From the NCBI GenBank assembly GCA_964635195.1, contig CAZWNC010000001.1, positions 1,312 to 65,311 of the forward strand: 64,000 bases of DNA, written 5' to 3'. The translations under genes and the position numbers were made by a program. The stretch comes from an uncultured Candidatus Saccharibacteria bacterium. GTDB lineage: Bacteria > Patescibacteriota > Minisyncoccia > Phycocordibacterales > UBA12088. Below the pieces are notes generated by a model that saw only the letters and a list, made by a program, of their open reading frames with translations, searched no databases and was not told the DNA's origin. Positions within the stretch are counted from its first letter, which is position 1. The number at the start of each line of letters is the position of its first letter. Of this stretch, positions 7,362 through 56,430 are shown one piece after another.

Positions 7362-7370
7362 TATTCACCT

Positions 7371-7418
7371 CCCATACACCAAAACGCCCTCATACCCGAG
7401 GGCGTTTTGGTGTATGGG
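7371..7418. repeat. Perfect 21-bp-stem inverted repeat (possible terminator/attenuator) after rpsJ
   Basis: cccatacaccaaaacgccctc / gagggcgttttggtgtatggg with 6-nt loop. No flanking T-run on either strand. Confidence 0.5.
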
Positions 7419-7794
7419 AGAGACCGCAAAAATAAAGCATACCTGGTTACTGTCTACCGTCGGTCGCTTGACGAAACTGGTGTCAACAATGAAATCATAA
7501 CAACCAACCTATCATTGCATACTAAAAAAGACCCTCAGTTCCTTTTTCTATCTTTCTAGCAACATTTCGGCAGTACCGGCACTTTGGATTTAGACTAGTT
7601 TTTCTAGCGAGCTTGTAATTTGGAAACAAAAGTGCCCTCGTGATAAAAATGGAGTGCTTTTGTCTTGGGGTGTCCATATGCGTCTTGCATATAATATACT
7701 GATATGCTGTGAAGTGCGGGTACCGTTTTGGTACCATGCCGTTTAAGGGAATGAGTAGCGTACGGTGTCATATTAGGTGAGTTGATGCGAAGAT

Positions 7795-7822
7795 TTGCAT
7801 ATTCATCCAAATGTGCTATAAT
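7795..7822 (+). promoter_or_regulatory. Strong sigma70-like promoter (TTGCAT-16nt-TGcTATAAT)
   Basis: -35 TTGCAT 7795-7800, extended -10 TGCTATAAT 7814-7822, 16-nt spacer. Located in a 600-bp non-coding AT-rich region. Confidence 0.5.
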
Positions 7823-7828
7823 ACAGAG

Positions 7829-7921
7829 GTGAGTGCTAGAGTGCAAAACTCTGCATAACGAAGAACTGCGTAAATCCCCCCTTGTGGGGGCTTTACGTAT
7901 TCACCTTACGCATACTTTTTG
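7829..7921 (+). ncRNA. Candidate small RNA (about 90 nt) with two hairpins and terminal T-run
   Basis: Downstream of the promoter above. Hairpins agagtgcaaaactct and cgtaaa-tcccccc-ttgt-gggggg-c-tttacg. TTTTT at 7916-7920. No ORF. Confidence 0.3.
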
Positions 7922-8043
7922 CCACCAGTGCTTACTGTGATATACTTTACTTGCTTGCTCCTCGAGTGGAGCGCCGCGGCACTCACAAATTAGTTTTTCG
8001 TGGAGCTCGCACCGGCGTTCCATTCGAGGTACAAACGTGACTC

Positions 8044-9108
8044 ATGCGCTTACTCGAAAACGTTTCCCTCGCGGAACTCACAACGCTACGCCTTGGAGGT
8101 GTGGCGCGTTTTTATGTGTCTGTGTACTCGATAGCCGATTTGCGAGAAGCGGTTCATTTTGCACAGCTGAAGCATTTGCCAGTGTGGATACTTGGAGGTG
8201 GCTCCAACACACTCTTTACCGAAGAGGGTTGGCCTGGCCTCGTCATTCGTATTGCGATCTTAGGCACGGAATACAAAGAGGATACAAAGGGTGATGCCCG
8301 GGTTGTGGCGGGTGCGGGCGAGCGGTGGGATACGCTCGTGCAAGATACTGTTTCGCAAGGATTCTGGGGATTGGAGAATCTATCATATGTGCCGGGAAGC
8401 GTGGGTGCGACACCCGTTCAAAATGTTGGATGCTACGGAGTATCGGTTAGTGACTGTATTGACTGGGTTGAGGTGTACGATTGTCGTGATGATGCGCTGC
8501 ACATATTATCTCCAAATTCTTGTGCGTTTGGGTATCGTGACAGTATTTTTAAACATCCGGAAGGTGCTTCCTACATAGTCACTCGCGTTGCATATCGCAT
8601 GAAAACTCGCAGAGCCCCTGTTCTCGAGTACAAAGAACTGGCTGAGCGTTTTGTGGCAAAACCTCCTGAGAGTCCTGCAGAAGTTCGCGACGCTCTTCGC
8701 GAGATACGTGGGAGAAAATTTCCAGATTTGACACGAGTCGGTACCGCCGGTTCATTTTTCAAGAACCCAATCGTACGCAAATCGTCTGTGAAGGATATCG
8801 AGCAGTGGCTTAAATGTTCGGTGCCACAGTATCCTGTTGATGATGAACGTGTCAAGATACCGCTCGCATGGTTACTTGAGGTCTTGGGTTGGAAGGGAAA
8901 GCGGGTCGGATCTGTCGGTACATGGGATGCACATGCATTGGTGTTGGTGCATTACGGCGGGGGAACTGCGTCAGATCTTTTGGCGTTCATTGAGAGTATT
9001 GCAGGTGATGTAAAACGTCGCACGACGATTCGTATCGAGCCGGAAGTGTGTATAGCACGCGTTTCTGAAGTGCAGAGCCGCCTTGAATCGACGTCGAATC
9101 ATGCGTAA
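8044..9108 (+). CDS. murB: UDP-N-acetylenolpyruvoylglucosamine reductase MurB
   Basis: FAD-binding N-domain (LRLGG..., LGGGSNTLF). 354 aa, typical MurB length. Confidence 0.85.
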   Translation: MRLLENVSLAELTTLRLGGVARFYVSVYSIADLREAVHFAQLKHLPVWILGGGSNTLFTEEGWPGLVIRIAILGTEYKEDTKGDARVVAGAGERWDTLVQDTVSQGFWGLENLSYVPGSVGATPVQNVGCYGVSVSDCIDWVEVYDCRDDALHILSPNSCAFGYRDSIFKHPEGASYIVTRVAYRMKTRRAPVLEYKELAERFVAKPPESPAEVRDALREIRGRKFPDLTRVGTAGSFFKNPIVRKSSVKDIEQWLKCSVPQYPVDDERVKIPLAWLLEVLGWKGKRVGSVGTWDAHALVLVHYGGGTASDLLAFIESIAGDVKRRTTIRIEPEVCIARVSEVQSRLESTSNHA

Positions 9109-9271
9109 TGCTGAGTGATGTATCGACGTCGAAACGTAAGATGGATAAAAAAATAAAGTATCGACGTCGATACGACTTATCCACACTCGATATACCCTCC
9201 ACACATTGTATCGAGTGTATGTTTGCATGATAATGATAGTACGTTAACGACGAAATCTTGGTCGACGTCGT
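9088..9271. promoter_or_regulatory. Cluster of four copies of palindromic motif (A)TCGACGTCGA(T) spanning murB 3' end to histone-like gene start
   Basis: Perfect 10-mers at 9088-9097, 9123-9132 and 9161-9170. A 9/10 copy at 9262-9271. Spacings about 35-40 bp. Confidence 0.5.
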
Positions 9272-9300
9272 TCATTACTTCGCACATAACCACCACTTCC

Positions 9301-9435
9301 ATGCCAGCAAAGAAAAAGGCGGTAAAGAAGGTTGCAGCTAAGAAGCCTGTAGCAAAAAAGGTTGCAAAGAAAGTAGTAAAGAAGGTTGCAGCCAAGAAGC
9401 CCGCAGCAAAAAAAGTTGCAGCTAAGAAGAAGTAG
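9301..9435 (+). CDS. Lysine-rich histone H1/Hc1-like DNA-binding protein (AKK/KKV repeats)
   Basis: MPAKKKAVKKVAAKKPVAKKVAKKVVKKVAAKKPAAKKVAAKKK. The track ORF starts at 9223 but the basic repeat region starts at ATG 9301. Terminator follows. Confidence 0.6.
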   Translation: MPAKKKAVKKVAAKKPVAKKVAKKVVKKVAAKKPAAKKVAAKKK

Positions 9436-9451
9436 TCTTCTCTCGTGACCA

Positions 9452-9484
9452 CAAAACAAGCCGCATGTTGCGGCTTGTTTTGTG
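9452..9484 (+). terminator. Rho-independent terminator (caagccgca-tgt-tgcggcttg + TTTT)
   Basis: Hairpin then T-run immediately after the histone-like gene stop. Confidence 0.7.
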
Positions 9485-9593
9485 CTACCCATCATGCAGT
9501 ACCGAGTGCAGAGGAAACAGGTGAGCGTCTTTGCATGCGGGTGAATATCCTGTCAACTGGCATCAATACCGATGCGTGGTACAATCGAGTGTA

Positions 9594-12131
9594 ATGTTCT
9601 CATTGAAACAGTTATTTCGAGAAAACACCAACAAACGTACATTGCGTGAGCTTGATAGTGTGGTGCGAAGCGTGAATGCGCAAGAGGAGCGGTTTGCGTT
9701 GTTGGACGATGCGCTGTTACGTGCGCAGACTCAAATTTTTATTGACCGATTGCAGAGTGGGGAAACGTTCGACAATATACTCCCCGAGGCGTTTGCGGTG
9801 GTGCGAGAGGCTGCGCGACGTGTGTTGGGGGAGCGACACTATGATGTGCAGATTATGGGTGGTGTTGTGCTGCATCGACATGCAATCGCCGAGATGCGTA
9901 CCGGTGAAGGTAAGACACTTGTTGCAACTCTGCCTGCGTATCTTAATGCGCTCGCACGAAAGGGTGTCCATGTTGTTACGGTAAACGATTATCTTTCTCG
10001 TCGCGATGCCGTGTGGATGGGACAGGTCTATGCATTCTTAGGCCTCTCGGTTGGGGTAGTAAATACGCAAGCCTCATACCTATACGATCCAACTCATAAG
10101 GAGGACTCTTCCGAAGACACGAAACGTGATGAAACGGGTTCATTCAAGGTTGCTTATGAATTCTTGCGACCGTGCACGCGCAGAGAAGCATATGAAGCGG
10201 ATATCACGTATGGTACAAACAGTGAGTTTGGATTTGATTATTTGCGCGACAATATTGAATACGAAGCGAACAATCTCCGTCAGCGCGGGCACCACTACGC
10301 GATTATTGACGAGGTAGACTCGATACTTATTGACGAAGCGCGTACGCCGCTTATCATCAGTGCACCTGCCGATGCAAGCGGTGCACTCTATGCTACGTTT
10401 GCTGAAATCGTACGATCGTTTGTTGAGGGTGAAGATTACACGAAAGATGAAAAACTCCGTGCCATTCAGCTTACTGATAGTGGTATCGAAAAAGCACAAC
10501 GCGCGTTGGGAGTAGAGAATATATACACGGATGCCGGTATCAAGTATGTTCACCATTTGGAGAGTTCTGTGCGCGCGAAGGCGCTCTTTGAGCGAGATAG
10601 ACACTATGTCGTACGCGACGATCAAATTGTAATCGTTGATGAATTCACGGGTCGATTGCAGCCGGGTAGGCGATGGAGTGAAGGTCTGCACCAGGCAGTG
10701 GAAGCGAAGGAGGGTGTCACTGTGCAGCGTGAGAGTCGCACATACGCGTCTGTTACGTATCAAAACTTCTTTCGCATGTACGAAAAGATAGCCGGTATGA
10801 CGGGAACCGCCGAGACGAGTGCGGAAGAATTTTATAGCGTATACAAACTTGACGTTGTCCAGATTCCTACCAACAAAAAGGTTGCGCGCATTGATCGGAA
10901 CGATCTCATTTTTCGCAACGAGGCAGGTAAGCTTTCCGCGGTCGTGCGTAAGGTGCGCGAGGTGCATGAAAAGGGTCAGCCGATTCTTATCGGTACGGCA
11001 TCTATTGACAAGAATGAGCAACTTTCCGAAAGTCTTGCTCGAGCAGGTGTTCCGCATGAAATGCTTAATGCAAAAAATCATGAACGAGAAGGTGAAATTA
11101 TTGCACAAGCGGGTCGTAAGGGTGCAGTAACGATAGCGACCAATATGGCAGGCAGGGGTGTTGACATTAAGCTTGGGGGAAGTCCGGCACTTCCTGGTAC
11201 TGCGGACGAAGTACGTGCGCTCGGGGGTTTGTTTGTGCTTGGAACAGAGCGTCACGAAGCGAGACGCATTGACAATCAGTTACGTGGTCGAGCGGGACGT
11301 CAAGGCGACCCGGGCGAGACGCTTTTTTGTGTTTCGCTTGATGATCACCTGATGCGAGTGTTCGGGAATCACGAGACCATCAAGAATCTCATGCAACGTG
11401 CGACTGAGGCGGATGATGTGCCGATAGAGTTTGGACTTATCTCACGACAGATTGAGAGTGCGCAAAAGCGTATCGAAGGTTTTCATTTTGATTCGCGCAA
11501 GCGAGTGCTGGCGTATGATGACGTATTGAATCACCAGCGTATGACGGTATATGCAAGACGTCGTAAGTATCTTGAAGGTAACAGAGAGGCGATGGGCGTG
11601 TTTCTTGCACAGCTATCCGCAGCACATGATACATACGAGGAATTGGTTCGAGTAAAGCGGGTCGAAATGGGTGATGACGAATTCTATTTGGCGCTCCGTC
11701 GTTTATTGATGCAGACTATCGATCTGTTCTGGCTCGAACATTTGGAGACTATGGAGTATTTGCGCAGCTCGGTAAATTTACGCGCCTATGGTCAGCGAGA
11801 TCCGCTTATCGAGTACCGTAAGGAAGGACTCCGTATGTTCCGTTCATTTGAAACGAGCATAGCTGATCGCGTTATGGAGTTTTTGCCCCAAATGGGTGCG
11901 GGGGCATTCGCAAGCGAAGAAGAGCGCATGAAGCGGGAAAGTGAGAAAGCGCAGCAAGTGTCTTCAAGTGTTACGACAGGTATTTCCGGCCCTGTGATGC
12001 GTTCTCAGACACTGGCACGGAGTCATGGCCGCAATGATCAAGTGCGGATAGAAAAAGACGGAGTAATTCGTGAGATGAAGTATAAAAAAGCCGAGCAATT
12101 TTTAACACAAGGATGGAAGGTGGTTGAATAG
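9594..12131 (+). CDS. secA: Preprotein translocase ATPase SecA
   Basis: About 846 aa with SecA DEAD motor motifs (MRTGEGKT, DEVDSILIDEARTPLIIS, TNMAGRGVDI). Canonical start MFSLKQLF at 9594 (track ORF 9531). Confidence 0.95.
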   Translation: MFSLKQLFRENTNKRTLRELDSVVRSVNAQEERFALLDDALLRAQTQIFIDRLQSGETFDNILPEAFAVVREAARRVLGERHYDVQIMGGVVLHRHAIAEMRTGEGKTLVATLPAYLNALARKGVHVVTVNDYLSRRDAVWMGQVYAFLGLSVGVVNTQASYLYDPTHKEDSSEDTKRDETGSFKVAYEFLRPCTRREAYEADITYGTNSEFGFDYLRDNIEYEANNLRQRGHHYAIIDEVDSILIDEARTPLIISAPADASGALYATFAEIVRSFVEGEDYTKDEKLRAIQLTDSGIEKAQRALGVENIYTDAGIKYVHHLESSVRAKALFERDRHYVVRDDQIVIVDEFTGRLQPGRRWSEGLHQAVEAKEGVTVQRESRTYASVTYQNFFRMYEKIAGMTGTAETSAEEFYSVYKLDVVQIPTNKKVARIDRNDLIFRNEAGKLSAVVRKVREVHEKGQPILIGTASIDKNEQLSESLARAGVPHEMLNAKNHEREGEIIAQAGRKGAVTIATNMAGRGVDIKLGGSPALPGTADEVRALGGLFVLGTERHEARRIDNQLRGRAGRQGDPGETLFCVSLDDHLMRVFGNHETIKNLMQRATEADDVPIEFGLISRQIESAQKRIEGFHFDSRKRVLAYDDVLNHQRMTVYARRRKYLEGNREAMGVFLAQLSAAHDTYEELVRVKRVEMGDDEFYLALRRLLMQTIDLFWLEHLETMEYLRSSVNLRAYGQRDPLIEYRKEGLRMFRSFETSIADRVMEFLPQMGAGAFASEEERMKRESEKAQQVSSSVTTGISGPVMRSQTLARSHGRNDQVRIEKDGVIREMKYKKAEQFLTQGWKVVE

Positions 12132-19585: not shown

Positions 19586-20995
19586 TCAAATTTCCTTGCG
19601 TGCCTGGGTGCGGGGAAGCGTGTACACAGGTGGTTTTCCATGTATGAAATCCTGTGCAAGTGAGTAGGTAAGCGCACCCTGATTTGGCACAACGATCAAG
19701 TCTCCAATTTCTAATCTTGATGCAAAACAGGAGTAGCCCCATCTATCTTGCATCATGCAGAGTGAACCGTAGATCATGGTATCAATTTCCTTGGTGCTCG
19801 GGTGTGTAATGTTTATGATAGGGAAATACTCATCTTCGAAACGTTCATACCCTATCATGTTCATCCCCCCATCGACTATCACGAGCCCGTCTTTACGGTC
19901 TGCGATACGAAGAAGCACGTGCATTGCGCTGTCTGCAATGATGCGACCCGGTTCTGTCAGGTATGTCGCGTTAGGGAGTAGTGGTCGGAGGTGCGTGTCA
20001 ATACCCAGAGCGATACCTTGTGCATAGTCGTGTAATGATGTGGAACGAAACGTGTGATGCTTGTACGGGAAAGGTGCCGGTGTATCGAAGTACTCGTATA
20101 TGGCTTGCACCACCTTTCCTTGAGGTGGATACCATGGGTACTCACCCTCTGTTGCGTCGGGAACGAACCCACCCCCAAAATCATAGAAAAGAATACCGGC
20201 AAGCTCTTCTTGGGAAAAATTTGCTTGGAGGTATTCCGCGACACTATGCATAGTCTCCACGTATGGTTGCGCGTCCGTATTCCAACTTTGATGTACCTGT
20301 ATGCCACAAAGATTGATGTGTTTGTGTGCCCGTGCAATGTCATAGAAACGTCTAAGCTCATTGAGCGGTATCCCGAACTTGTTCCATTTTTTTGCAGAAG
20401 TTATCCTGATACCTGTGTTGATGGTTCGATGGTGTGTTGCTGCAACTTCGGCCAAAAGTTCGAGCTCACGGAAACTGTCCATGTGAATGATCACTCGTGA
20501 GGCATGTTTACATGCGAGGGTTAGTCCTTGATGCGTTTTTGCGGGACCGGTGTATATAATGCGTTTCGCTTTCGCGTTAAGTGCAAGACGTAGCTCGCGT
20601 TCACTCGAGACATCAAGCCCGTATCCGTGTTTGACGATGGTGCGTAACACGTGTGGGTGGTCATTTACTTTCACCGCAAAATACGCGCTTATGTCAGGTA
20701 TGGCGCGTGAGAACTCTTTGGTGAAAGAGGTGAGGGCGTGTTCCAGCGCTTCGTCGTCGAGCACGAAGCACGGTGTGTCATGTTCGTGTGCAATGGTAAG
20801 GAAGCGATCCCGTTTTCGGTGAATAGCACGGACAACCGGTAGCATGCTTTGTGCAGATTCGGTATGGACCTCTTGAAGAATATGTGAAAATTTCTTTCGC
20901 AGGTCTGCCTTCATGGTGTCGGTGACAAGCGGGACGGTTCTTTGTTCTTTCTTTTGCATGAGAGAGATATTACATGAATAGTGCGGAAACTGCAC
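19586..20995 (-). CDS. PLP-dependent fold-III decarboxylase (Orn/DAP/Arg decarboxylase family) with about 60-aa N-terminal extension
   Basis: YFAVKVN PLP-lysine motif, FYDFGGGF glycine loop, EPGR, and C-terminal GSLCMMQDRW active-site Cys region. Confidence 0.75.
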   Translation of the reverse strand: MQFPHYSCNISLMQKKEQRTVPLVTDTMKADLRKKFSHILQEVHTESAQSMLPVVRAIHRKRDRFLTIAHEHDTPCFVLDDEALEHALTSFTKEFSRAIPDISAYFAVKVNDHPHVLRTIVKHGYGLDVSSERELRLALNAKAKRIIYTGPAKTHQGLTLACKHASRVIIHMDSFRELELLAEVAATHHRTINTGIRITSAKKWNKFGIPLNELRRFYDIARAHKHINLCGIQVHQSWNTDAQPYVETMHSVAEYLQANFSQEELAGILFYDFGGGFVPDATEGEYPWYPPQGKVVQAIYEYFDTPAPFPYKHHTFRSTSLHDYAQGIALGIDTHLRPLLPNATYLTEPGRIIADSAMHVLLRIADRKDGLVIVDGGMNMIGYERFEDEYFPIINITHPSTKEIDTMIYGSLCMMQDRWGYSCFASRLEIGDLIVVPNQGALTYSLAQDFIHGKPPVYTLPRTQARKEI

Positions 20996-22259
20996 TGCGG
21001 ATACTCAATCCTCGCGCATTGAGCGACCCTGTGATGGGGTCGTAGAGGGGACTGTCGCTGAAAATGGTTGCAAGTGTAAATTCTTCTTCGATGCGAGCAT
21101 GTGGCACTGAGAGGTCATGAAAGAGAAAAAAAGTATCTAATCCTGAAGGAATGTGTTGTTCGTCTGCAATGTGGCTAATGCCACGCGCAGTCAGCTGGTA
21201 TGTCCCCACCATAGGTATTTTTGAGACATCGGTGTATGCCGGTACGTCGATATCGAGAGTTGCACCCTCATAGTGACTGCTCGGAATATGCGCTTCTTCC
21301 TTTTGAGTCGTTCCGAGTGTGTCACGTACACACGCTCGTGTATACAGCCTCCATGGTTCTTTGTGTGGGGTAAGACCATTTGTGGAAAAAAGCTGTGGTG
21401 TCGCCGCTGAGAGTCGTGGGTTGCATTCAAGCACGTATGCCCTCTCGTTAGACACAATAAAGTCAATGTTCGCCATGCCGGCAAACTTTGTCGCATGCAG
21501 TAGAGCGCTTGTTTTCAGGAGCTCTCCTTGCAGTGAACGAAGTGCCTCGTCTGAGAAATAATTCGTCGGTAACCATTGTATACCCAAGAATATATTTGGA
21601 AAATCATTCTCGTATAGAAAACATTGGCGTCGTATTGCAGAAAATACCGCATGGCCTGCATGGTCTATGATGATGCTTACGCCGATCGGTGTTCCCGGTA
21701 CGTACTCACGCACAAGCACGGACTTCGTAAGCGATGCAGGTGGCACGCTGCCCGCTTGCAGAAATACTGTGCCTTGCATGCCGGATCCGGTACTTTCCTG
21801 AATAACGTACGTCTTAGTGGGTAGCATGTGTGCGGGAGTACTCAATGTTGGCGGTGTGTGCACCGCGTGCTTTCTGAGAAGACGTTGGAATACGCGCTTG
21901 TTTTCGAGGCGAGTTTGTATGCGTGCCGGAGGAGTTATCAGTGTAATTTTGTTCTTACGAGCCCACTCCCGGTACTCCTTTTTTGTTCGATACGGGACTG
22001 CAAGATGAGTGATAGATCGTTCGTGGAGTTTTTCTGCAAGATCGGTCTCAAAGAGTAGTTGATCAAAGGTTGGATAGGGAAGTTCTCGAACGCTTGAGAC
22101 CATGATGAGTTCGCTCTCGTGAAAGTGAGTGTGTGCGTAGGTGGCGACGGGTGTACCTGCAAGTACGATGATGAAGAGTCCGGCGCGATCATGTTCACGG
22201 AAAAACAATGGCTCCATCATGCTAAGCCAGACAGCCAGGGTGTTCGGAGTGTGTTGCAT
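20970..22259 (-). CDS. ATP-grasp family ligase (CPSase/biotin-carboxylase-like ATP-binding domain)
   Basis: Glycine-rich loop ESTGSGMQG. ANIDFIVSNERAYVLECNPR Mg/ATP motif. 26-nt overlap with downstream decarboxylase gene. Confidence 0.65.
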   Translation of the reverse strand: MQHTPNTLAVWLSMMEPLFFREHDRAGLFIIVLAGTPVATYAHTHFHESELIMVSSVRELPYPTFDQLLFETDLAEKLHERSITHLAVPYRTKKEYREWARKNKITLITPPARIQTRLENKRVFQRLLRKHAVHTPPTLSTPAHMLPTKTYVIQESTGSGMQGTVFLQAGSVPPASLTKSVLVREYVPGTPIGVSIIIDHAGHAVFSAIRRQCFLYENDFPNIFLGIQWLPTNYFSDEALRSLQGELLKTSALLHATKFAGMANIDFIVSNERAYVLECNPRLSAATPQLFSTNGLTPHKEPWRLYTRACVRDTLGTTQKEEAHIPSSHYEGATLDIDVPAYTDVSKIPMVGTYQLTARGISHIADEQHIPSGLDTFFLFHDLSVPHARIEEEFTLATIFSDSPLYDPITGSLNARGLSIRSAVSALFM

Positions 22260-22291
22260 GCTCGTGTCACTAGGCTTGTAACTCTGAAGAG

Positions 22292-23698
22292 TTATCGTTT
22301 TGATGTGTTCCTTTTTGTTGGCGATGATGGTGCAAGTTCTTCCTTGTAAATCGTGATGATCTTTTCAGCTACTTCTGCCGGTATGTTTTGAAAACGGTGA
22401 ATGCCAAGGTATAGCTGTGCGAGCTCTCTTTTGCGTGCCTCAAAATCGGCAAGCATTTTTTTCTTGAAAAGATCAATGCTGTAACCGGTGCGACCTCGTT
22501 CTGTTGCCAGTAAGAACGCAAGACCGAGCTCATCCTTGGTGCCATACTCAAGATTACTGACGGTCCGTTTAAAGAAGTCAGCGTACAGGTGGGCATGTTC
22601 TCGATCGAAAAGGTTTTCGGTGAAGCCCATGCCATACAGATCGATATCCGAGGCCGCTGAGAGCGCATACACGTATGCGCATTTTGAGCAGTTTTGGCAC
22701 CATCGAACCTGCTTCGCTTGTTCGTTATTTGCAAAACAGGACATCTGAAATGTACCGTACTCTGAGTACCTGGTGTGCAACACCTTCAGGATTGCGAGCT
22801 CGTAGAGTGGTTCCATTAGACTCACGACTTTGACATCCCTTCCGAGGAGTAGAGACCCAAGAAGGCCTTGTTGGGTTGTCCAGTCAGTGTGTTGGTCATA
22901 TGCGGCAGAGTAGGTGAGAACACCTTCTTTGTCAAAGAATGAGTCGTTACAAGACTGCTCGTTTCCGAGGATGATGTAGTCTGCGTTGAAGTGGTGTGCA
23001 AAGGGAAGCGCAAGTACCGCACACTCAGTCGTATGCAGTCCCCAACCCAGCTCAGTTGAAAATCCCCAGTATTTGCCATATCGAAATATACCGGGAGTGT
23101 TTTGTAAGACGTGTATCTTTACATCGAATTTCTTTTCAAAAGCGGCGGTCATTTTTTGTTTGTGGGCATGTTCAAAATCGTGAGATGGTTCTACGAACAT
23201 CACCAGTATTGGTCGTATCCCGAGCTCTTTGCAAAGTGCAAGCGTGAGCATGCTCTCTTTTCCAAACGAGAACGGTATGACCGCTGTCGGTGCATCTGAC
23301 GGGGGGCGATTGGTGTGGACGGTCTGAATCTCGTTAGTGCCAAAATACGAACGGACATTGAAAAAATCCTTCATGTATGAAACAGAGGATTTTTTGTCGG
23401 AGTGTGCGGTGCAGGGCATGTCGTATATACCGTTTTTGAAAAAAAATGTTTCCGCGAGCGATCGCGCCGTTTTGTAGTGTATGTCCGGAAGGGAAAGAAT
23501 TTGCGGAAGAAACATCGTCGAGCTCACGGTTACCGCGTCTCGCAGCGCCTCTTTTGCTTCTTGCGGGTAGCTCGTCCACACATCCTTTGGGTAACGAATC
23601 GGAAAGTGTTCTTTGTTTACCACGACCGAGACTCCGTCTTTCGTGATTTTGCCATCGACGATCAATTCGTTTGGTAATGGTGCGTGTGGTGTGTTCAT
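22292..23698 (-). CDS. Hypothetical protein with degenerate PP-loop (SFGKES ~ SGGKDS) and C-terminal CxxC zinc-ribbon; possible adenylating ATP-pyrophosphatase
   Basis: VIPFSFGKESMLTLAL resembles PP-loop of Dph6/MJ0570-like ATPases. CQNCSKCAYVYAL Cys pair. Weak assignment. Confidence 0.4.
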   Translation of the reverse strand: MNTPHAPLPNELIVDGKITKDGVSVVVNKEHFPIRYPKDVWTSYPQEAKEALRDAVTVSSTMFLPQILSLPDIHYKTARSLAETFFFKNGIYDMPCTAHSDKKSSVSYMKDFFNVRSYFGTNEIQTVHTNRPPSDAPTAVIPFSFGKESMLTLALCKELGIRPILVMFVEPSHDFEHAHKQKMTAAFEKKFDVKIHVLQNTPGIFRYGKYWGFSTELGWGLHTTECAVLALPFAHHFNADYIILGNEQSCNDSFFDKEGVLTYSAAYDQHTDWTTQQGLLGSLLLGRDVKVVSLMEPLYELAILKVLHTRYSEYGTFQMSCFANNEQAKQVRWCQNCSKCAYVYALSAASDIDLYGMGFTENLFDREHAHLYADFFKRTVSNLEYGTKDELGLAFLLATERGRTGYSIDLFKKKMLADFEARKRELAQLYLGIHRFQNIPAEVAEKIITIYKEELAPSSPTKRNTSKR

Positions 23699-23731
23699 AT
23701 TGCTTTGAGAGTTCGTGCGAATAAATGTATC

Positions 23732-26167
23732 CTACATGGAGTCGGTTTGGAGATGATAGTACTGGGGTCGATTCTCGTACCGTTTGATGGCGACACGTAA
23801 TACCTCCTCCACAAGGTCTGCGTAACTCATTTTTACCAGGCGTGCCGCGCGGGGAAGTATGTCATGCGTGTCCATGTGCTGGTTTGGATTAAGCTCAAGA
23901 ACGTACGGATTGCTATTCTTGTCGACCTTTATCTCTACGATACCATAGTCATGGCAATCGAGTATATTGTATGTGTCGAGGGCGATTTCGGTTATGAGTG
24001 ACTCAAGTTTTTTATTCATGTTCATAGAGGGCTCCTCGATGGATATTTTTTCGTAGAGTGATTTGTCAACCCATTTCGCTTCGTACGGGTAAATGTGCCA
24101 AAGCCCTTCGGGGAGTGCGTCGAATGTTGAGCGTGAGAGAGGAAGAACTCGAAGGTCGTCCTCTTCGCTACCGATAATCGGCACCGCATACTCGTCTCCA
24201 TCAATGTATTCTTCTACGAGCGCCGGACTTCCGAGTTCGTGTATGACGTAAGCAAGTCGTTTTTGGAGCTGTGTCTTGTCGGTAACGACCGACTCATTGG
24301 TGATTCCAATCGAATTATCGGTGTTCGAGGGTTTAACGATAAGTGGATACTTGAGTGTCTGATCGATATCGTCTTCGGTGGTGTACGCATAGTCCCAACG
24401 CGGAGTTGGGATTCCGTGGAAAGAAAGTAGTTTTTTGATACGGATCTTGTCATTACAGAGTCCAAGGGTAAATGGATTTGATCCGGTGTAGGGTATTTGC
24501 AACATGTCCAGAAGTGCGGCCGAATGCGGTTTGAGCATGCTTGAATTATTTATTCTTCCGCAAGCATTAAATACAATATCAACATTACTATTTCGAAGTT
24601 CGTTTATGCAACGCACCGGTTCGTTCATGTCGAAAACGGTTGTCGCATATCCTCGTTCGGCAAGGGCTTCTTCAATGTGTGTGCCAACCGCCGAAAGGGC
24701 GGCCTCAATCACACCATCCTCTTCTTGAAACATGTTGTAGAGAATTCCCACGTGCAAATTGCGTTGGCTTTTGATCGAAGTGCGTCGCATGCGTTCGATT
24801 TTTGCGGCTCCCTCAAGGAGTTCTTTGTTGGTGGAAGCCATGGAAAATCGGTTGCGTCGGAGTGTCTTTCCTATCGAGGATGACGAATGGAACTTCGCAA
24901 CGTCGTACTTGATGTACTTCAAGGCTTCGTTGAAATTGTGTTCGGTATCGAGGGGGTTTTCTCCTGAAACCACAATCCAACCAAGGTACTCGTACCCTTC
25001 GGGCGGAACCAGTACCGCATCACCCGCCTGCTTAAAGAGGCAGAGCTCCTCAACCCCCGGAACTTTTTTGATGCGTTCGTCCATTTCAAGTTTAACGAGA
25101 AGCCCGGACTGTTTCGGAGTGAATGTGTTGCTCATCAAATACTTATGGGGCGTGTCCGGTTTCCGAACTTTTTGGAGGTAGATTCCGAGGGCGATTTTCA
25201 CAGCACCCTCGATGAGATCGACCCCCCATGCCTCTTTGCTAAAGGTATACGTCTCATCGCCCCCCATGCGAAGATTGATTTCAATCGGCACAGGACCTTT
25301 TCGCGTTGTTTTGGCTTCAAAATGAATACATCCGTTCTGTATTCCCAGTTTTTCAAGCACGGTCTCCGCCATTTCCACGAGCGCCTCCTGATCTTTTGCG
25401 GGAAGTTCCGAAGGGATTGCCTGCTGTGTCTCTATGAAAAAAGGTTCCTCGGTTCGGTAATTGTCGACGACGGCGAAATACTTAATTTTTCCGTTTTGAA
25501 GCAGTATGTCGACGTCGACCTCGTCACCATCGATGTAGCTTTCGACGAGAATGTCGAGTCCTTCGTTGAGTGACGATTCGATGTTCGGGGATATGTTACG
25601 TTCAATGTACTCGTAGGTATTGTAAAACTCCTCTTTGTCTTGTGCCTTGATGACAAACGCACTCCCCGAGCCGTAGGTCGGCTTGAGGACAACGGGAAAG
25701 GTGAAAGAGGTGACGACCTGTTCCAAATCCTCCTCGTCTTTGATAAGCATATGTTCCGGGGTGCGAATCCCGTTCTCGGTACAAAATTTTCGAAAGAGAA
25801 ACTTATCACGCACTTGTTTTGCAATAGCGATTGGAACGCCTATCAGGTCGAGTGCGTCTGCTATTTTTGAGGTCAGAAGCACATCGTCTTCCCAGAACGT
25901 TACCACACCATCCACTGACACGCTTGGGTTCGCGCTGAGGAATGTCTCAATATCCTCAATCACTTTTGCGTGGTTCTTGTTGTCGGTAAGTATCCATCGG
26001 TCGATGAAGGGAGCGGCCCAATTCTTTTCATGATGGATAGCAATAATGTGAAGACCGAGCTGTTTCAGTCGCTGTACGATAAACTTCTTCTTTACCGAGC
26101 CGGTATTGACCAACAAGATGGTCTTGCCGACCAGTTCAGAGCGCTCAACATCCTGTTTCTTTTTCAC
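23732..26167 (-). CDS. Two-domain ATP-grasp ligase (N-terminal carnosine-synthase/L-amino-acid-ligase-like + C-terminal D-Ala-D-Ala-ligase-like)
   Basis: N-half has PVVLKPTYGSGSAFV and IEINLRMGGDE. C-half has Ddl-like layout (HVGILYNMF..., IVFNACGRINNSSM..., YPLIVKPSNTDNSIGI, YVLELNPNQ). 811 aa. Confidence 0.7.
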   Translation of the reverse strand: MKKKQDVERSELVGKTILLVNTGSVKKKFIVQRLKQLGLHIIAIHHEKNWAAPFIDRWILTDNKNHAKVIEDIETFLSANPSVSVDGVVTFWEDDVLLTSKIADALDLIGVPIAIAKQVRDKFLFRKFCTENGIRTPEHMLIKDEEDLEQVVTSFTFPVVLKPTYGSGSAFVIKAQDKEEFYNTYEYIERNISPNIESSLNEGLDILVESYIDGDEVDVDILLQNGKIKYFAVVDNYRTEEPFFIETQQAIPSELPAKDQEALVEMAETVLEKLGIQNGCIHFEAKTTRKGPVPIEINLRMGGDETYTFSKEAWGVDLIEGAVKIALGIYLQKVRKPDTPHKYLMSNTFTPKQSGLLVKLEMDERIKKVPGVEELCLFKQAGDAVLVPPEGYEYLGWIVVSGENPLDTEHNFNEALKYIKYDVAKFHSSSSIGKTLRRNRFSMASTNKELLEGAAKIERMRRTSIKSQRNLHVGILYNMFQEEDGVIEAALSAVGTHIEEALAERGYATTVFDMNEPVRCINELRNSNVDIVFNACGRINNSSMLKPHSAALLDMLQIPYTGSNPFTLGLCNDKIRIKKLLSFHGIPTPRWDYAYTTEDDIDQTLKYPLIVKPSNTDNSIGITNESVVTDKTQLQKRLAYVIHELGSPALVEEYIDGDEYAVPIIGSEEDDLRVLPLSRSTFDALPEGLWHIYPYEAKWVDKSLYEKISIEEPSMNMNKKLESLITEIALDTYNILDCHDYGIVEIKVDKNSNPYVLELNPNQHMDTHDILPRAARLVKMSYADLVEEVLRVAIKRYENRPQYYHLQTDSM

Positions 26168-27419: not shown

Positions 27420-29174
27420 GTGCGGCAACGGCAAGGGAGACATTGTGGAAAAGTGTGTTCATGTGTGGAGTGTGCTAGTCTGTTAGGCATGACACAAGAT
27501 GAGGCCTTTGCGATACTGTGTATGGGTAAAAACGTGTTTTTGACCGGTGCGGCGGGGAGTGGCAAGACCTACGTCATCAACCGCTACGTACGATGGTTGC
27601 GTGAGCGCGGTATCGAGCCAGCTGTCACTGCGTCAACGGGGATTGCCGCTACACACATCGGGGGTCAAACGATCCACAGTTGGTCGGGAATCGGAGTAAA
27701 AGAGTACCTTGGTCCATACGAACTCGATCACATTGCGCAGAACGAACGCTTGGTCAAGCGCTTTCAAGGCACGCAGGTACTTATTATCGATGAAGTATCG
27801 ATGCTTGCCGGCAATACGCTTGGTCTTGTGGATCAGGCATTGCGCGCAGGCCTTTCCAAGGAAGAGCCGTTCGGAGGTCTGCAGGTGATACTGTGTGGTG
27901 ATTTTTTTCAGCTACCCCCGGTGGTACGAGGAAATGGCATGATGCAGTTTGCGTTTCAGAGTGATGCGTGGCATGCGCTTGGGCTCGTCGTATGCTATCT
28001 CCATGAACAATACCGCCAGGATGACGAAGCACTGCTTGCAATTTTGAACGGTATTCGAGCAGGTGATGTATCACACGCACTCCGTGCAATGCTCGAAATG
28101 CGTATCGGATGTGTTTCCCCAACCGAGGTTCCCCATCTCTACACACACAATGTCGACGTCGACCGTTTAAATACTGAGCGCCTCGCTCTTTTAGAGGGTC
28201 CTGCACGTTCGTACCATATGCGTACCAAGGGAAGCAAAAAACACCTTGAATTGCTCAAGCGCGGTACGATGGTGCCTGAAGTATTGCAAATCAAAGAAGG
28301 TGCGGTGGTGATGTGCATCAAGAACCATCCACAAGGTAAATATGTGAACGGAACATTGGGTACGGTCGTGCGTTTTGCCGGAATTGGAAACCCTGTAATA
28401 GTGACACGTGCCGGCGTTGAGCTCGAAATAGAAGAAGATAGTTGGAAGATGGAAGATGGTGACAAAGTAAAGGCGGAGCTTATACAAATCCCTCTTCGTC
28501 TCGCATGGGCGGTTACTGTGCACAAGAGCCAAGGGCTTACTCTTGATGCGGCACAAATTGACCTGCGTAAGACGTTTGTCGAGGGGCAGGGCTATGTGTC
28601 ACTCTCGCGGGTTCGCTCACTCACCGGTCTCTATCTTGAAGGAATATCCGAGCTTGCCTACGGGAGACACCCTGCGGTTGCCGAGGCAGATCAATTTTTT
28701 ATTGCAGCATCCGACATGAGTGTGCGACGACTCACAGTAACTTCGCAGGAACGAGTGTTAGAACTGACGAATGAGTTCATTCGCTCGTGTGGAGGCCACC
28801 TGCCGGATCCGAAACGGAGCGCGGTAAAGAGTAAAAAGGGGGCAAAAGAGGGGACATATGACAAAACGTTACGTATGGTCCGTGAGCACATGAGCATACA
28901 AGAAATTGCCGATGAGCGTGAGTACAGTGAAGATACAATCATGACACACATCGAACGCTTGATGCGTCAAGGTGTTTTGAGTACAAAAGATATAGCATAT
29001 CTTGCCCCAAACGATGATTCATTCGAAGCTGTTTTGAAGGAAGTCGCAGAGGCCTTTGAAACACTGGGGGTATGGAATCTTGCGCCGGTGCGTGCACACC
29101 TCGATGACCGTTTTAGTTACCCGGAACTCCGTTTCCTGCGTCTCTTCGTACAGAAGAGCGACGGCGTTGCGTGA
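27420..29174 (+). CDS. PIF1/RecD-like superfamily-1 helicase with C-terminal HTH-like domain
   Basis: Walker A GAAGSGKT, Walker B LIIDEVSM, C-terminal helicase motif VTVHKSQGLTLD, then a helix-turn-helix-like tail. True start may be M at 27489. Confidence 0.75.
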   Translation: MRQRQGRHCGKVCSCVECASLLGMTQDEAFAILCMGKNVFLTGAAGSGKTYVINRYVRWLRERGIEPAVTASTGIAATHIGGQTIHSWSGIGVKEYLGPYELDHIAQNERLVKRFQGTQVLIIDEVSMLAGNTLGLVDQALRAGLSKEEPFGGLQVILCGDFFQLPPVVRGNGMMQFAFQSDAWHALGLVVCYLHEQYRQDDEALLAILNGIRAGDVSHALRAMLEMRIGCVSPTEVPHLYTHNVDVDRLNTERLALLEGPARSYHMRTKGSKKHLELLKRGTMVPEVLQIKEGAVVMCIKNHPQGKYVNGTLGTVVRFAGIGNPVIVTRAGVELEIEEDSWKMEDGDKVKAELIQIPLRLAWAVTVHKSQGLTLDAAQIDLRKTFVEGQGYVSLSRVRSLTGLYLEGISELAYGRHPAVAEADQFFIAASDMSVRRLTVTSQERVLELTNEFIRSCGGHLPDPKRSAVKSKKGAKEGTYDKTLRMVREHMSIQEIADEREYSEDTIMTHIERLMRQGVLSTKDIAYLAPNDDSFEAVLKEVAEAFETLGVWNLAPVRAHLDDRFSYPELRFLRLFVQKSDGVA

Positions 29175-41100: not shown

Positions 41101-41282
41101 AGTGTATGTGTTTATAGTAAGGCTACCGTTTTTGTGACGTGTAGCACAGTCGAGCTTATTTCTTATTTCTGTATCGTATCGTATTCACCCCCGTGCGGGT
41201 ATGGTTGGAGTGTGGATAAGAGAATGGTACACTCGTCCGTGCGGATTATAGTTATATCGAGCACGCTTCCGCCCAGTAACGT

Positions 41283-43871: not shown

Positions 43872-44000
43872 ACTTGTGTGTTTTGAGCATGGCAGTGAAG
43901 CCCGCTCGGTTGAGTCGGGGTAATTCTGATCGGCATAACCGTTTATTCGACGTCGAAACATGTCCTTGCGGACGTTACATATCTTGGTATCATCATCTCC

Positions 44001-50939: not shown

Positions 50940-51323
50940 ATGAAATTATTTGATTTGTTTAAAAAAGAACGAAAAGTCCTTGTGGTCGAGGATGACGTGC
51001 GCCTTCGGGAATCGTTACGTGATGTCTTTGAAGCAAAAGGGTATGTGGTTACCGAAGCGGGCGACGCAACCACCGTACTTGCTTCAATAGGAAAAAGCGT
51101 TCCCGACGTAATGGTGCTCGACCTTATTCTTCCTGCAAAAGACGGTATTACGTTGCTTGAAGAGATGCGAAACGAAGGTTACTCGTTTCCCGTCGTTATT
51201 TTGTCAAACCTACTTGGTTCCGATTCATTGCGTGAAGATGCCGAACGTCTCGGTGCCGTATTTTACAACAAGTCATCGACGTCGCTTGAGGACATTGCGG
51301 GTGCGGTGTCGAAGGTGATTTAA
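50940..51323 (+). CDS. Stand-alone response regulator receiver (CheY-like)
   Basis: VLVVEDDVRLRESL...VMVLDLILPAKDG receiver motifs (DD, D, K). Confidence 0.8.
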   Translation: MKLFDLFKKERKVLVVEDDVRLRESLRDVFEAKGYVVTEAGDATTVLASIGKSVPDVMVLDLILPAKDGITLLEEMRNEGYSFPVVILSNLLGSDSLREDAERLGAVFYNKSSTSLEDIAGAVSKVI

Positions 51324-51326
51324 TCA

Positions 51327-51731: not shown

Positions 51732-51739
51732 TTTGACCT

Positions 51740-56273: not shown

Positions 56274-56430
56274 AGAGCGAGAGAGCAGCGTGCCTGCGCA
56301 CGCTGTGTCGAGGATAGAAAGGCGCAACCATCGACTTGCTATACGCGAGGAGAGGCGAGCCGGGGTCGAGAGCACTTGGTTATTGAGGAACCGCCTCAGG
56401 CGGAGATGAAATAACCTAGTGACTCGTGAC

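What the first reader, a model, noticed from the sequence alone, without database searches (positions are those of the whole stretch)
9088..9271. Over-represented palindromic 10-mer TCGACGTCGA, with a cluster of four sites upstream of the histone-like gene
Perfect TCGACGTCGA occurs at 9088, 9123, 9161, 28153, 43947 and 46573. 9/10 variants occur at 9262, 3844 and 51281. A random 64-kb sequence is expected to contain about 0.06 copies of a given palindromic 10-mer. Four copies are spaced about 35-40 bp apart across the murB stop and the promoter region of the lysine-rich histone-like gene. Another sits in the uvrA-uvrC intergenic gap (43947). This is the signature of a regulator operator array, or of a genome-wide selected motif such as a DNA-uptake-like or methylation-related sequence.
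Basis: seen in the sequence. Interest (0 to 1): 0.65.

Follow-up and report, generated by a model that had tools for sequence, protein, structure and literature searches.

The report
Conserved palindromic boxes before histone-like gene
The repeated palindrome TCGACGTCGA is a real, evolutionarily conserved control element in front of a tiny lysine-rich "histone-like" gene of an uncultured Paceibacteria-type bacterium; what binds it is unknown, and it is not a genome-wide uptake or replication signal.

Summary

Three perfect copies (9088, 9123, 9161) and a fourth copy differing only at its last base (9262) lie between murB and a 44-aa Lys-rich ORF. Related uncultured genomes keep this array while the spacers diverge. 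The number of upstream boxes varies from 0 to 3 between lineages.

The module also holds:
- an invariant DnaA-box-like TTATCCACA (9177);
- a conserved promoter, TTGTAT-N17-GATAAT;
- a structured leader containing GGTCGACGTCGTT (9260-9272).

The GGTCGA half of the leader box is ancient across the class and sits at a fixed ~41 nt from the ATG.

In low-GC relatives the 8-mer core is almost confined to this gene. The other window copies (the uvrA-uvrC gap and three VDVD codon runs) exceed chance but are not conserved in relatives diverged by about 25% or more.

Best reading: lineage-specific operator-like boxes for an unidentified dimeric DNA-binding regulator of this gene. An RNA-level role is a serious rival, above all for the leader copy. 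Origin, parS, SOS-box and uptake-sequence readings fail their tests. The motif matches no Rfam family and no transcription-factor motif in the searched literature.

The parts
9088..9097 (.). Upstream box 1, perfect TCGACGTCGA, inside the last codons of murB (TCG ACG TCG = S-T-S)
   Evidence: an equivalent first box is present in L081, L083 and L084
9123..9132 (.). Upstream box 2, perfect TCGACGTCGA, intergenic
   Evidence: conserved in L081 and L083 with different spacing (27/26 bp against 35 bp)
9161..9170 (.). Upstream box 3, perfect TCGACGTCGA (16-bp palindrome GTATCGACGTCGATAC), 6 nt before the DnaA-box-like sequence
   Evidence: the 5-6 nt gap to TTATCCACA is kept in the window, L081, L083, L087 and L089
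9177..9185 (+). TTATCCACA, a perfect DnaA-box consensus. It is present in all 8 murB-anchored lineages that carry the palindromic leader box, and exact in 14 of the 20 more distant Lys-rich-gene loci
9206..9234 (+). Inferred promoter of the Lys-rich gene: -35-like TTGTAT (9206-9211), 17-nt spacer, -10 GATAAT (9229-9234)
   Evidence: Both hexamers are conserved across relatives. The transcription start is inferred, not shown
9246..9252 (+). 5' arm AACGACG of the predicted leader hairpin, complementary to CGTCGTT at 9266-9272
   Evidence: RNAalifold helix; minimum-free-energy folds recover it in 11 of 12 leaders; pair counts
9260..9272 (+). It is identical in 7 of the 8 murB-anchored lineages (L087 was missed by that automated scan but shows GGTCGACGTCGTT). 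Its GGTCGA half is conserved class-wide, and it lies 41 nt before the ATG
9301..9435 (+). 44-aa Lys/Ala-rich ORF (MPAKKKAVKKVAAKK...), histone-H1-like by composition only
   Evidence: NCBIfam histone-H1-like models score far below cutoff (16.6 bits against 80); orthologues of 30-91 aa
9451..9483 (+). Terminator-like hairpin after the ORF (ACAAAACAAGCCGC-atgtt-GCGGCTTGTTTTGT)
   Evidence: an equivalent hairpin is seen in the relatives' sequence
43947..43956 (.). Dispersed perfect copy in the uvrA-uvrC gap, 45 nt before the uvrC ATG; not conserved
25509..25518 (.). Dispersed perfect copy inside an ATP-grasp gene (GTC GAC GTC GAC = VDVD); the L218 orthologue has GTCGATATCGAT
28153..28162 (.). Dispersed perfect copy inside the Pif1-like helicase gene (VDVD). 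The peptide is conserved but the codons differ in L218 and L219
46573..46582 (.). Dispersed perfect copy near the 3' end of a 148-aa ORF on the minus strand (TRVDVDQN). Nucleotide-identical in L214 and L217; L215 has VKVG

Best explanation
TCGACGTCGA (core CGACGTCG) is a lineage-specific cis-regulatory box of the small Lys-rich, histone-H1-like gene that lies between murB and secA in a Paceibacteria-type (CPR) bacterium.

Shown:
- The gene has a conserved module: 0-3 palindromic boxes, an invariant DnaA-box-like TTATCCACA, about 44 nt holding a -35-like TTGTnT and a GATAAT -10, a structured leader containing GGTCGACGTCGTT, about 41 nt, then the ATG.
- The boxes are kept while the spacers diverge.
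- In low-GC relatives the core is almost confined to this locus.

Inferred:
- The upstream palindromes are operators for an unidentified sequence-specific dimeric DNA-binding protein. The GACGTC core is shared with the MetJ metbox, which makes a ribbon-helix-helix- or AbrB-like beta-ribbon binder one candidate.
- This protein, together with DnaA bound 5-6 bp from the proximal box, tunes transcription of the nucleoid-protein gene.
- The number of auxiliary operators (three in this genome) sets the strength of the control.
- The leader copy was built on an older RNA-leader element (GGUCGA at a fixed distance from the start codon). It probably serves both as the downstream operator and as the 3' strand of a 5'-terminal mRNA hairpin.
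- The dispersed copies elsewhere in this genome are recent gains: weak or secondary targets, or neutral spread.
For: Statistics:
- 7 copies against 0.19 expected.
- Top palindromic 8-mer outlier.
- Three perfect copies within 83 bp.

Footprinting:
- L081, L083 and L084 (murB 82-84% identical) keep 3 perfect boxes plus TCGACGTCGT, with spacings of 27/26, 38 and 100 bp against 35, 38 and 101 bp in the window.
- Wider relatives (murB 55-65% identical) and 11 metagenome loci keep the module with 0, 1, 2 or 3 upstream boxes. One of them, L206, shows an independent triplication at 18-bp spacing.
- In 1.15 Mb of loci with GC below 0.5, 26 of 34 CGACGTCG lie in this gene's upstream region.
- The 80 murB-anchored loci (murB 39-57% identical, 1.25 Mb) hold only 4 copies of the 10-mer.

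DNA-level hints:
- Upstream copies are perfect 10-bp dyads: position 1 is T, matching A at position 10, rather than the A that would extend complementarity to the leader.
- The proximal box sits a fixed 5-6 bp from TTATCCACA in five lineages.
- Boxes lie both upstream and downstream of the conserved promoter.

Other:
- There is no general excess of palindromes: 71 against 72 for 10 bp, 20 against 18 for 12 bp.
- No Rfam family covers the region.
Against: - No candidate regulator was identified. Pfam scans of 50 of the window's 56 ORFs found no recognisable transcription factor or methyltransferase, only receiver-only response regulators; 13 ORFs had no hit.
- The leader copy keeps a constrained distance to the ATG (40-46 nt, sd 1.3) but not to the -10 (24-45 nt). 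Its GGTCGA half is conserved in distant relatives that have no palindrome. Both points favour an RNA or translation-linked role for that copy.
- Flanks of the upstream boxes are asymmetric (A-box-A).
- Both upstream copies in L089 carry the same oriented variant, CGACGGCG.
- L002 and L202 have ACGACGTCGA, which extends complementarity to the leader box.
- Distances from box to leader box (100-151 bp) show no helical phasing.
- In AT-rich relatives the single upstream box lies between the murB stop and a terminator-like hairpin, so it is transcribed.
Confidence: 0.5

Rival explanations
1. RNA-level element. The boxes act in the transcript. The leader copy is part of a conserved 5'-terminal hairpin and junction (GGUCGA) that controls mRNA stability or translation of a gene with no Shine-Dalgarno sequence. 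The self-complementary upstream copies, present in murB 3'UTR or read-through RNA, pair with each other or with the leader box. That pairing insulates or modulates expression from read-through transcripts.
For: - GGTCG lies 40-46 nt from the ATG in 18 clade sequences (sd 1.3) and 33-45 nt in most distant ones, while its distance to the -10 varies from 24 to 75 nt.
- GCGGTCGAA is invariant at the foot of a hairpin that shows double-sided compensatory changes in 6 of 10 pairs in distant relatives.
- The clade helix AACGACG:CGUCGUU is recovered in 11 of 12 minimum-free-energy folds. It is 96% paired. The extended helix is 85% paired and has 3 pairs with double changes.
- Loop insertions are themselves self-complementary.
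- The oriented variants in L089 and the extended complementarity in L002 and L202 fit this reading.
- No plus-strand terminator is predicted between murB and the gene in the window.
Against: - Covariation support is weak. The 3' arm is invariant, and the one-sided wobble changes are what transitions in an A/C-rich arm give anyway. For cells with a change on both sides, the shuffle control reaches the observed value in 17 of 500 trials.
- Fold z-scores are mostly unremarkable; the window's is +0.14.
- Most upstream copies are perfect dyads rather than complements of the leader box.
- The fixed 5-6 bp spacing to the DnaA-box-like site is a DNA-level feature.
- This reading does not explain the dispersed copies.
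Confidence: 0.27
2. Genome-wide selected DNA word. The motif is the target of a protein that acts along the chromosome: a nucleoid-organising or segregation protein, a DNA-uptake receptor, or an orphan methyltransferase with a reader. The histone-like gene is just its densest cluster.
For: - Outside the array there are 4 perfect copies against 0.31 expected from synonymous-codon shuffles, and 8 core 8-mers against 2.0 (P about 0.001 each).
- 3 of the 4 VDVD peptides are encoded as GTCGACGTCGAC.
- Orthologous VDVD sites in L218 and L219 use other codons, so this lineage gained the word.
- High-GC relatives show roughly 3-fold excess of the 8-mer outside their arrays.
- 4 of 12 core sites lie within 70 nt upstream of a start codon (coordinates).
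Against: - Density is about 1 per 9 kb, against roughly 1 per kb for Neisseria DUS or Haemophilus USS (own knowledge).
- There is no positional conservation beyond close relatives.
- L218 (21.8 kb, GC 0.55) has none.
- In low-GC members of the clade the word is essentially restricted to one locus.
- The dispersed copies have different flanks (G...C) from the regulatory boxes (A...A).
- The sample is small: one 64-kb window.
Confidence: 0.12
3. Replication origin or partition site: the DnaA box plus repeated palindromes mark oriC or a parS-like centromere.
For: - A perfect TTATCCACA lies next to the repeats.
- A cluster of short palindromes resembles a plasmid centromere.
Against: - GC skew is positive on both sides of 9.2 kb and throughout the window.
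- The locus holds only one DnaA box, and 1-mismatch boxes are not enriched (17 against 12).
- No canonical parS is found, even allowing 3 mismatches.
- The box number drops to 0 in relatives that keep the rest of the module.
Confidence: 0.03
4. SOS or LexA-type box shared by DNA-repair genes, suggested by the uvrA-uvrC copy.
For: - A perfect copy lies 45 nt before the uvrC ATG.
- The half-site TCGAC resembles the TCGAAC of actinobacterial LexA boxes (own knowledge).
Against: - The site is absent from the same gap in L214 (UvrC 93% identical), L217 and L215.
- The copy inside uvrC (44098) is explained by the conserved K-A-T-S codons.
- No copy lies upstream of uvrA or uvrB.
Confidence: 0.02

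Closest known systems
MetJ metbox operator arrays (E. coli met regulon)
   Same: Both are short palindromic boxes with the identical central GACGTC (AGACGTCT against CGACGTCG). Both occur in 2-5 copies around a promoter, with copy number varying between targets. MetJ shows that a ribbon-helix-helix beta-ribbon can read such a compact dyad. The comparison rests on my own knowledge.
   Different: Metboxes abut each other as tandem 8-bp repeats, whereas here the boxes are 18-38 bp apart and one lies about 100 bp away in the leader. The outer bases differ. The target is a nucleoid-protein gene, not a methionine gene. MetJ is known only from gamma-proteobacteria, and no MetJ-like protein was seen in the window.
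Multi-operator repression with auxiliary sites (lac O1/O2/O3, gal OE/OI)
   Same: A site just downstream of the transcription start is combined with auxiliary identical sites upstream of the promoter, and the number and position of the auxiliaries vary.
   Different: No binder is known. The operator distances (100-151 bp) show no helical phasing. The downstream site is also part of a conserved RNA leader.
DnaA-regulated promoters (for example dnaA and nrdAB in E. coli, sda in B. subtilis)
   Same: A perfect DnaA-box consensus lies at a conserved distance (about 40-44 nt) upstream of the -10 of a conserved promoter.
   Different: There is a single box. DnaA binding is untested. The partner palindromes have no counterpart in known DnaA-regulated promoters.
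DNA uptake sequences (Neisseria DUS, Pasteurellaceae USS)
   Same: A 10-mer over-represented beyond codon-aware expectation, including inside genes.
   Different: DUS and USS are not palindromes. They occur at about 1 per kb genome-wide and are not tied to one gene. Here the density is about 1 per 9 kb, and in most of the clade the word is confined to one locus.
Post-transcriptional control of chlamydial histone-like Hc1 (hctA) by the sRNA IhtA
   Same: Expression of a Lys-rich histone-H1-like protein is controlled through its mRNA leader (own knowledge). It serves as a precedent for the RNA-level rival.
   Different: There is no sequence or structural relationship, and no trans-acting RNA was identified here.

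Membership tests
MetJ metbox operator | 8-bp consensus AGACGTCT | tested here: not met
   The core here is CGACGTCG. The inner six bases are identical and the outer two differ in every copy.
MetJ metbox operator | Two or more boxes in direct tandem contact (8-bp register) | tested here: not met
   Centre-to-centre spacings are 18-38 bp and about 100 bp.
MetJ metbox operator | MetJ repressor encoded in the genome | not testable with these tools
   Only 64 kb of the genome is available. No such protein was found among the window ORFs.
Chromosomal origin (oriC) | Cluster of several DnaA boxes | tested here: not met
   There is one perfect box at 9177; the next is at 41211. Boxes with at most 1 mismatch number 17 against 12 expected.
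Chromosomal origin (oriC) | Sign change of GC skew | tested here: not met
   The skew is positive in every 2-kb bin of the window.
parS / ParB centromere | 16-bp TGTTNCACGTGAAACA-type palindrome | tested here: not met
   0 matches with up to 3 mismatches. The motif here is a different 10-mer.
DNA uptake sequence (DUS/USS) | About 1 copy per kb spread over the whole genome, in all close relatives | tested here: not met
   7 copies per 64 kb. There are 0 in 21.8 kb of L218. Low-GC relatives carry it almost only at one locus.
DNA uptake sequence (DUS/USS) | Preferential uptake of motif-bearing DNA | not testable with these tools
   Needs a transformation assay.
LexA (SOS) box | Conserved sites upstream of DNA-repair genes across relatives | tested here: not met
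   The uvrA-uvrC copy is absent in L214, L215 and L217. None lies before uvrA or uvrB.
Restriction-modification or methylation target | Methylated bases at the motif; cognate methyltransferase | not testable with these tools
   No kinetics or methylation data are available, and no methyltransferase was found in the window. GACGTC is not avoided: 26 observed against 17 expected.
Known RNA families (Rfam 15) | Match to a covariance model | tested here: not met
   No match overlaps 9088-9300 even at E up to 10; the nine listed matches all lie at 9380-9515 and are far below gathering score. No credible match in nine related loci either.
Intrinsic terminator of murB | GC-rich hairpin followed directly by a U-run on the murB strand | tested here: not met
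   The scan finds only a minus-strand match at 9173-9158; nothing is found on the plus strand between 9108 and 9300.

The most novel reading that the evidence does not exclude
The palindrome is the recognition site of a so far unknown chromosome-acting protein of CPR bacteria. Such a protein could be a nucleoid organiser, a reader of an epigenetic mark or a DNA-uptake specificity factor. Its sites are spreading through the genome of this lineage, into coding sequence by synonymous codon choice, and its master target is the gene for the cell's H1-like nucleoid protein. Alongside this, the class-wide GCGGUCGAA leader would be a new structured regulatory RNA of Paceibacteria.
Probability: 0.12. 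Interest if true: 0.75.

Novelty: new member of a known kind. Interest (0 to 1): 0.45.

Why it matters
CPR/Patescibacteria have tiny genomes and few recognisable regulators, and almost nothing is known about how they control gene expression or organise their nucleoid. This work defines a conserved, testable control module for what is probably their main histone-H1-like DNA-packaging protein. The module has a DnaA-box-like site, a palindromic box present in 0-3 auxiliary copies, and a structured leader conserved across the class. It offers bait sequences for finding the regulator. It suggests a link between replication-initiator status and nucleoid-protein supply. It also points to a candidate new leader RNA that is absent from Rfam.

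Tried and rejected
- Literature searches for the 10-mer and the 8-mer returned only cloning primers and unrelated motifs. The haloarchaeal RosR motif TCGnCGACGAGnTCGnCGAC is different. Searches on Patescibacteria regulons and on CPR histone-like proteins found nothing relevant.
- Scanning viral contigs for two boxes 15-45 bp apart gave 110 stretches (80 listed). I did not examine them and judged the array pattern too unspecific for the single metagenome scan.
Close relatives had to be fetched protein by protein.
- The source contig (101,895 bp, NCBI) could not be retrieved, so no whole-contig count was possible.
- Quasi-palindrome correction is rejected: there is no general palindrome excess.
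- Slippage duplication of GTCGAC is rejected. Tandem 6x2 repeats number 27 against 17 +/- 6. GTCGAC is the only unit seen at three loci. The 46573 site aligns with VKVG in L215 without an indel.
- An ATG-proximal second promoter with the box as its -35 was considered. It is plausible in the clade (TCGACG-N17-CATAAC) but does not fit the distant relatives, so it is kept only as a minor possibility.
- The wobble-only changes in the 5' arm first looked like strong RNA evidence. On reflection they are what transitions in an A/C-rich arm would give anyway.
- The AbrB/MazE-like gene upstream of murB in L081 carries a box in its coding sequence (CGA CGT CGA = RRR) but has no counterpart in the window.
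Full report
**Observation**

TCGACGTCGA occurs seven times in the window: 9088, 9123, 9161, 25509, 28153, 43947 and 46573. Dinucleotide-preserving shuffles expect 0.19 copies, and none of 100 shuffles reaches seven. Markov models of order 0-5 expect 0.06-0.41.

With one mismatch allowed there are 14 sites against 4.1 expected. They include 9262 (TCGACGTCGT) and 3844.

The word is the commonest 10-mer in the window and its core CGACGTCG (12 copies) is the commonest 8-mer. Among all 256 palindromic 8-mers the core is the strongest outlier, with 12 copies against 2.1 expected (z 6.9). The permuted word CGTCGACG has 0 copies. GACGTC alone is only mildly frequent, so the signal lies in the extended word. 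The window has no general excess of palindromes: 71 ten-bp palindromes against 72 simulated, and 20 twelve-bp against 18.

**Setting**

The window is 91% coding. It carries EF-Tu, rpsJ, murB (8044-9108), a 44-aa Lys/Ala-rich ORF (9301-9435), secA, an ATP-grasp cluster, a Pif1-like helicase, ftsA/ftsZ, uvrB/uvrA/uvrC, ddl and other genes.

The best protein matches are from uncultured 'Candidatus Pacebacteria/Paceibacterota' MAGs. The likely source is a 101,895-bp NCBI contig that could not be fetched. GC skew is positive across the whole window.

The Lys-rich ORF is 'histone-like' by composition only. Pfam gives no hit, and the NCBIfam histone-H1-like models score far below cutoff.

**The cluster is conserved**

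Close relatives keep three perfect boxes plus the TCGACGTCGT copy in front of the orthologous Lys-rich gene. These are L081/L082 (murB 84% identical) and L083-L086 (82%). The sequence between the boxes has diverged, with spacings of 27/26, 38 and 100 bp against 35, 38 and 101 bp here. In L081 a 330-bp insertion separates murB from the first box.

Wider relatives anchored on murB (55-65% identity: L087, L089, L090, L001, L002) show the same module. So do 11 metagenome loci found with the pattern TTATCCACA-N65-95-GGTCGACGTCGTT. The module reads, in order:
- murB stop;
- 0-3 boxes;
- TTATCCACA;
- about 40-44 nt containing TTGTnT;
- GATAAT;
- a leader with GGTCGACGTCGTT;
- about 41 nt;
- the ATG.

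The number of upstream boxes differs between lineages:

| Upstream boxes | Lineages |
|---|---|
| 0 | L090, L001, L205, L211 |
| 1 | L002, L201-L204, L208, L210, L212 |
| 2 | L087; L089 (both as the variant CGACGGCG) |
| 3 | window, L081, L083; independently L206, at 18-bp spacing |

One caveat applies. In the metagenome loci, the invariance of TTATCCACA and of the leader box follows from the search pattern. The murB-anchored loci are the independent evidence.

**Specificity to this gene**

The 80 murB-anchored loci (murB 39-57% identical; 1.25 Mb) hold only four copies of the 10-mer. In 1.15 Mb of loci with GC below 0.5 there are 34 copies of CGACGTCG, and 26 of them are in the upstream region of the Lys-rich gene. 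The ancestral role of the word is therefore gene-specific and cis-regulatory.

**The leader copy**

Distant members of the class include Kaiser-, Yonath- and Taylorbacteria-type MAGs (murB 39-49% identical). In these the Lys-rich gene after murB has the same [TC]GATAAT promoter, with exact TTATCCACA in 14 of the 20 loci and one-mismatch variants in several others. It also has a long leader hairpin closing just before an invariant GCGGTCGAA.
- All 22 Lys-rich genes found have GGTCG within 190 nt upstream.
- 13 of the 17 GCGGTCGAA occurrences in 297 kb are at the leader.
- The hairpin shows double-sided compensatory changes in 6 of 10 pairs.

So the GGTCGA half of the window's leader box is ancient. 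The palindrome and the upstream copies are an innovation of the window's clade.

The distance from GGTCG to the ATG is tightly constrained: 40-46 nt in the clade (sd 1.3), and 33-45 nt in most distant relatives. The distance to the -10 varies from 24 to 75 nt. This ties the leader copy to the start codon and hence to an RNA or translation-linked role. The gene has no evident Shine-Dalgarno sequence.

Within the clade, CGUCGUU (the 3' part of the box) is predicted to pair with a 5' arm: AACGACG at 9246-9252, with variants AACGGCG, AGCGATG and GGCGACA.
- The helix is found by RNAalifold and in 11 of 12 single-sequence folds.
- It is 96% paired.
- An extended version is 85% paired, with three pairs showing double changes; for cells with a change on both sides, 17 of 500 shuffles reach the observed value.

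Support for the hairpin is therefore moderate, not decisive. The 3' arm never varies, and the one-sided wobble changes are what transitions in an A/C-rich arm would give anyway. No Rfam family matches any of these leaders.

**The upstream copies**

These are perfect 10-bp dyads. Position 1 is T in most lineages, matching A at position 10, rather than the A that would extend complementarity to the leader box.

In the window, L081, L083, L087 and L089 the proximal box sits a fixed 5-6 bp from TTATCCACA. TTATCCACA is the DnaA-box consensus and lies at a conserved distance from the -10. This is DNA-level architecture. It is the main reason I favour an operator reading: an unidentified dimeric DNA-binding protein that recognises the dyad, with auxiliary sites in variable number. 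It may act together with, or against, DnaA.

By analogy (own knowledge), the MetJ metbox AGACGTCT shares the central GACGTC and also occurs in arrays. A beta-ribbon (RHH or AbrB-type) binder is therefore a reasonable candidate, but every membership test for MetJ operators fails.

Several points count against a pure DNA model:
- the flanks are asymmetric (A-box-A);
- both upstream copies in L089 carry the same oriented variant;
- L002 and L202 have ACGACGTCGA;
- the distances between box and leader box (100-151 bp) show no helical phasing;
- in AT-rich relatives the single box lies between the murB stop and a terminator-like hairpin, so it is transcribed.

**The dispersed copies**

The uvrA-uvrC copy (43947) is not conserved. 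L214 (UvrC 93% identical), L217 and L215 carry an extra 86-aa ORF in that gap and no box.

The 8-mer inside uvrC (44098) encodes the conserved K-A-T-S of the GIY-YIG motif. This explains its conservation.

Sites 25509, 28153 and 46573 are all GTC GAC GTC GAC, encoding VDVD. In the Pif1 and ATP-grasp orthologues of L218 and L219 (about 72% identity) the peptide is VDVD or VDID, but the codons differ (GTCGATGTGGAT, GTCGATGTAGAC, GTCGATATCGAT). L218 has no 8-mer at all in 21.8 kb. Site 46573 is nucleotide-identical in L214 and L217, but L215 has VKVG there, without an indel.

These copies still exceed chance:
- Synonymous-codon shuffles of the window's genes expect 0.31 ten-mers and 2.0 eight-mers, against 4 and 8 observed (P about 0.001 each). 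GACGTC itself is as expected, 20 against 19.
- Three of the four VDVD peptides use the palindromic codons.
- Slippage does not explain this, and neither does quasi-palindrome correction.
- High-GC relatives show roughly a 3-fold excess of the 8-mer outside their arrays.

I read these as recent, lineage-specific gains of uncertain function. They keep a genome-wide role alive but do not establish one.

**Rejected readings**

- Origin of replication: there is one DnaA box and no skew switch.
- parS: none found.
- SOS box: not conserved.
- Uptake sequence: density about 1 per 9 kb, and locus-restricted in most of the clade.
- murB terminator: no plus-strand terminator signature.
- Known RNA family: none.
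- Known transcription-factor motif in the searchable literature: none.

**Verdict**

The array is a conserved regulatory feature of the Lys-rich nucleoid-protein gene. The mechanism is most likely operator binding by an unknown regulator (about 0.5). An RNA-level role is a serious rival (about 0.27), especially for the 9262 copy, and a broader chromosomal role is a minority possibility (about 0.12). It is a new member of a known kind, a cis-regulatory box array with a leader. It is of moderate interest because regulation in CPR bacteria is almost uncharted and the module is directly testable.

Noticed in passing
window 9177-9185; L001-L090 and L201-L213 upstream of the Lys-rich genes: A perfect DnaA-box consensus, TTATCCACA, lies about 40-44 nt upstream of the GATAAT -10 of the Lys-rich gene. 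It is present in all 8 murB-anchored lineages of the clade and exact in 14 of the 20 more distant Paceibacteria-class loci, with one-mismatch variants in several others. It suggests DnaA-dependent control of the nucleoid-protein gene.
   Followed up: partly
L006-L062 leaders (e.g. L016:1789-1886, L024:11156-11254); window 9241-9300: There is a class-wide structured 5' leader of the Lys-rich gene. It starts near GTAAGCA, forms a hairpin with compensatory changes, and then has an invariant GCGGTCGAA about 36-44 nt before the ATG. No Rfam match exists, so this is a candidate new cis-regulatory RNA.
   Followed up: partly
window 41211-41219 (minus strand): A second perfect DnaA-box-like sequence (TGTGGATAA on the plus strand) lies about 65 nt upstream of the uvrA ATG, inside a conserved block GGTTGGAGTGTGGATAAGAG..TGGTACACTCGT. 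It is also present in L214 and L217.
   Followed up: partly
window 43872-44000 vs L214:6287-6786, L217:9587-10000: Relatives carry a conserved 86-aa ORF (plus a 49-aa ORF in L214) between uvrA and uvrC. It is missing from the window, where the shorter gap holds the non-conserved box instead.
   Followed up: partly
window 7362-8043: About 680 bp between rpsJ and murB has no convincing ORF, tRNA or Rfam match. rpsJ is detached from the rest of the S10 operon. In L215 the rplC-rplE ribosomal genes lie about 3.8 kb upstream of uvrC, separated from it by two ORFs.
   Followed up: no
L219:11526-11554: Two core copies form a 12-bp inverted repeat, CGACGTCGACGG-gggtg-CCGTCGACGTCG, between the TGT gene and a minus-strand ORF. 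This makes a strong hairpin out of the same word.
   Followed up: no
L081:7166-7173 and 9687-9696: In the relative GCA_041920275.1, one core copy lies 13 nt upstream of a TATAGT -10-like hexamer (within TGGTATAGT), just before a Wzy_C-domain gene. A perfect 10-mer lies inside a 69-aa AbrB/MazE-like gene (CGA CGT CGA = RRR) upstream of murB.
   Followed up: partly
window, whole: The palindrome AAGATCTT is also over-represented (6 against 1.1, z 4.6). CCTAGG and TCTAGA are absent, and GGCGCC, CAATTG, GGATCC and CCGCGG are under-represented (ratio 0.39-0.49). These could be restriction-avoidance signatures.
   Followed up: no
window 19586-26167 (minus strand): An operon-like run holds an Orn/DAP-type decarboxylase, an ATP-grasp protein, a 468-aa protein with no Pfam hit and an 811-aa double ATP-grasp/D-Ala-D-Ala-ligase-like protein. 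It is conserved in L218 and is possibly a peptide-ligase pathway.
   Followed up: no
window 50940-52444: Two adjacent receiver-only response-regulator genes are followed by a short HisKA-containing protein. A one-mismatch box (TCGACGTCGC, 51276) lies 42 nt before the second receiver gene's start codon.
   Followed up: no
window 56198-56596: Two tRNA-Thr genes (GGU and CGU anticodons) lie 250 bp apart.
   Followed up: no
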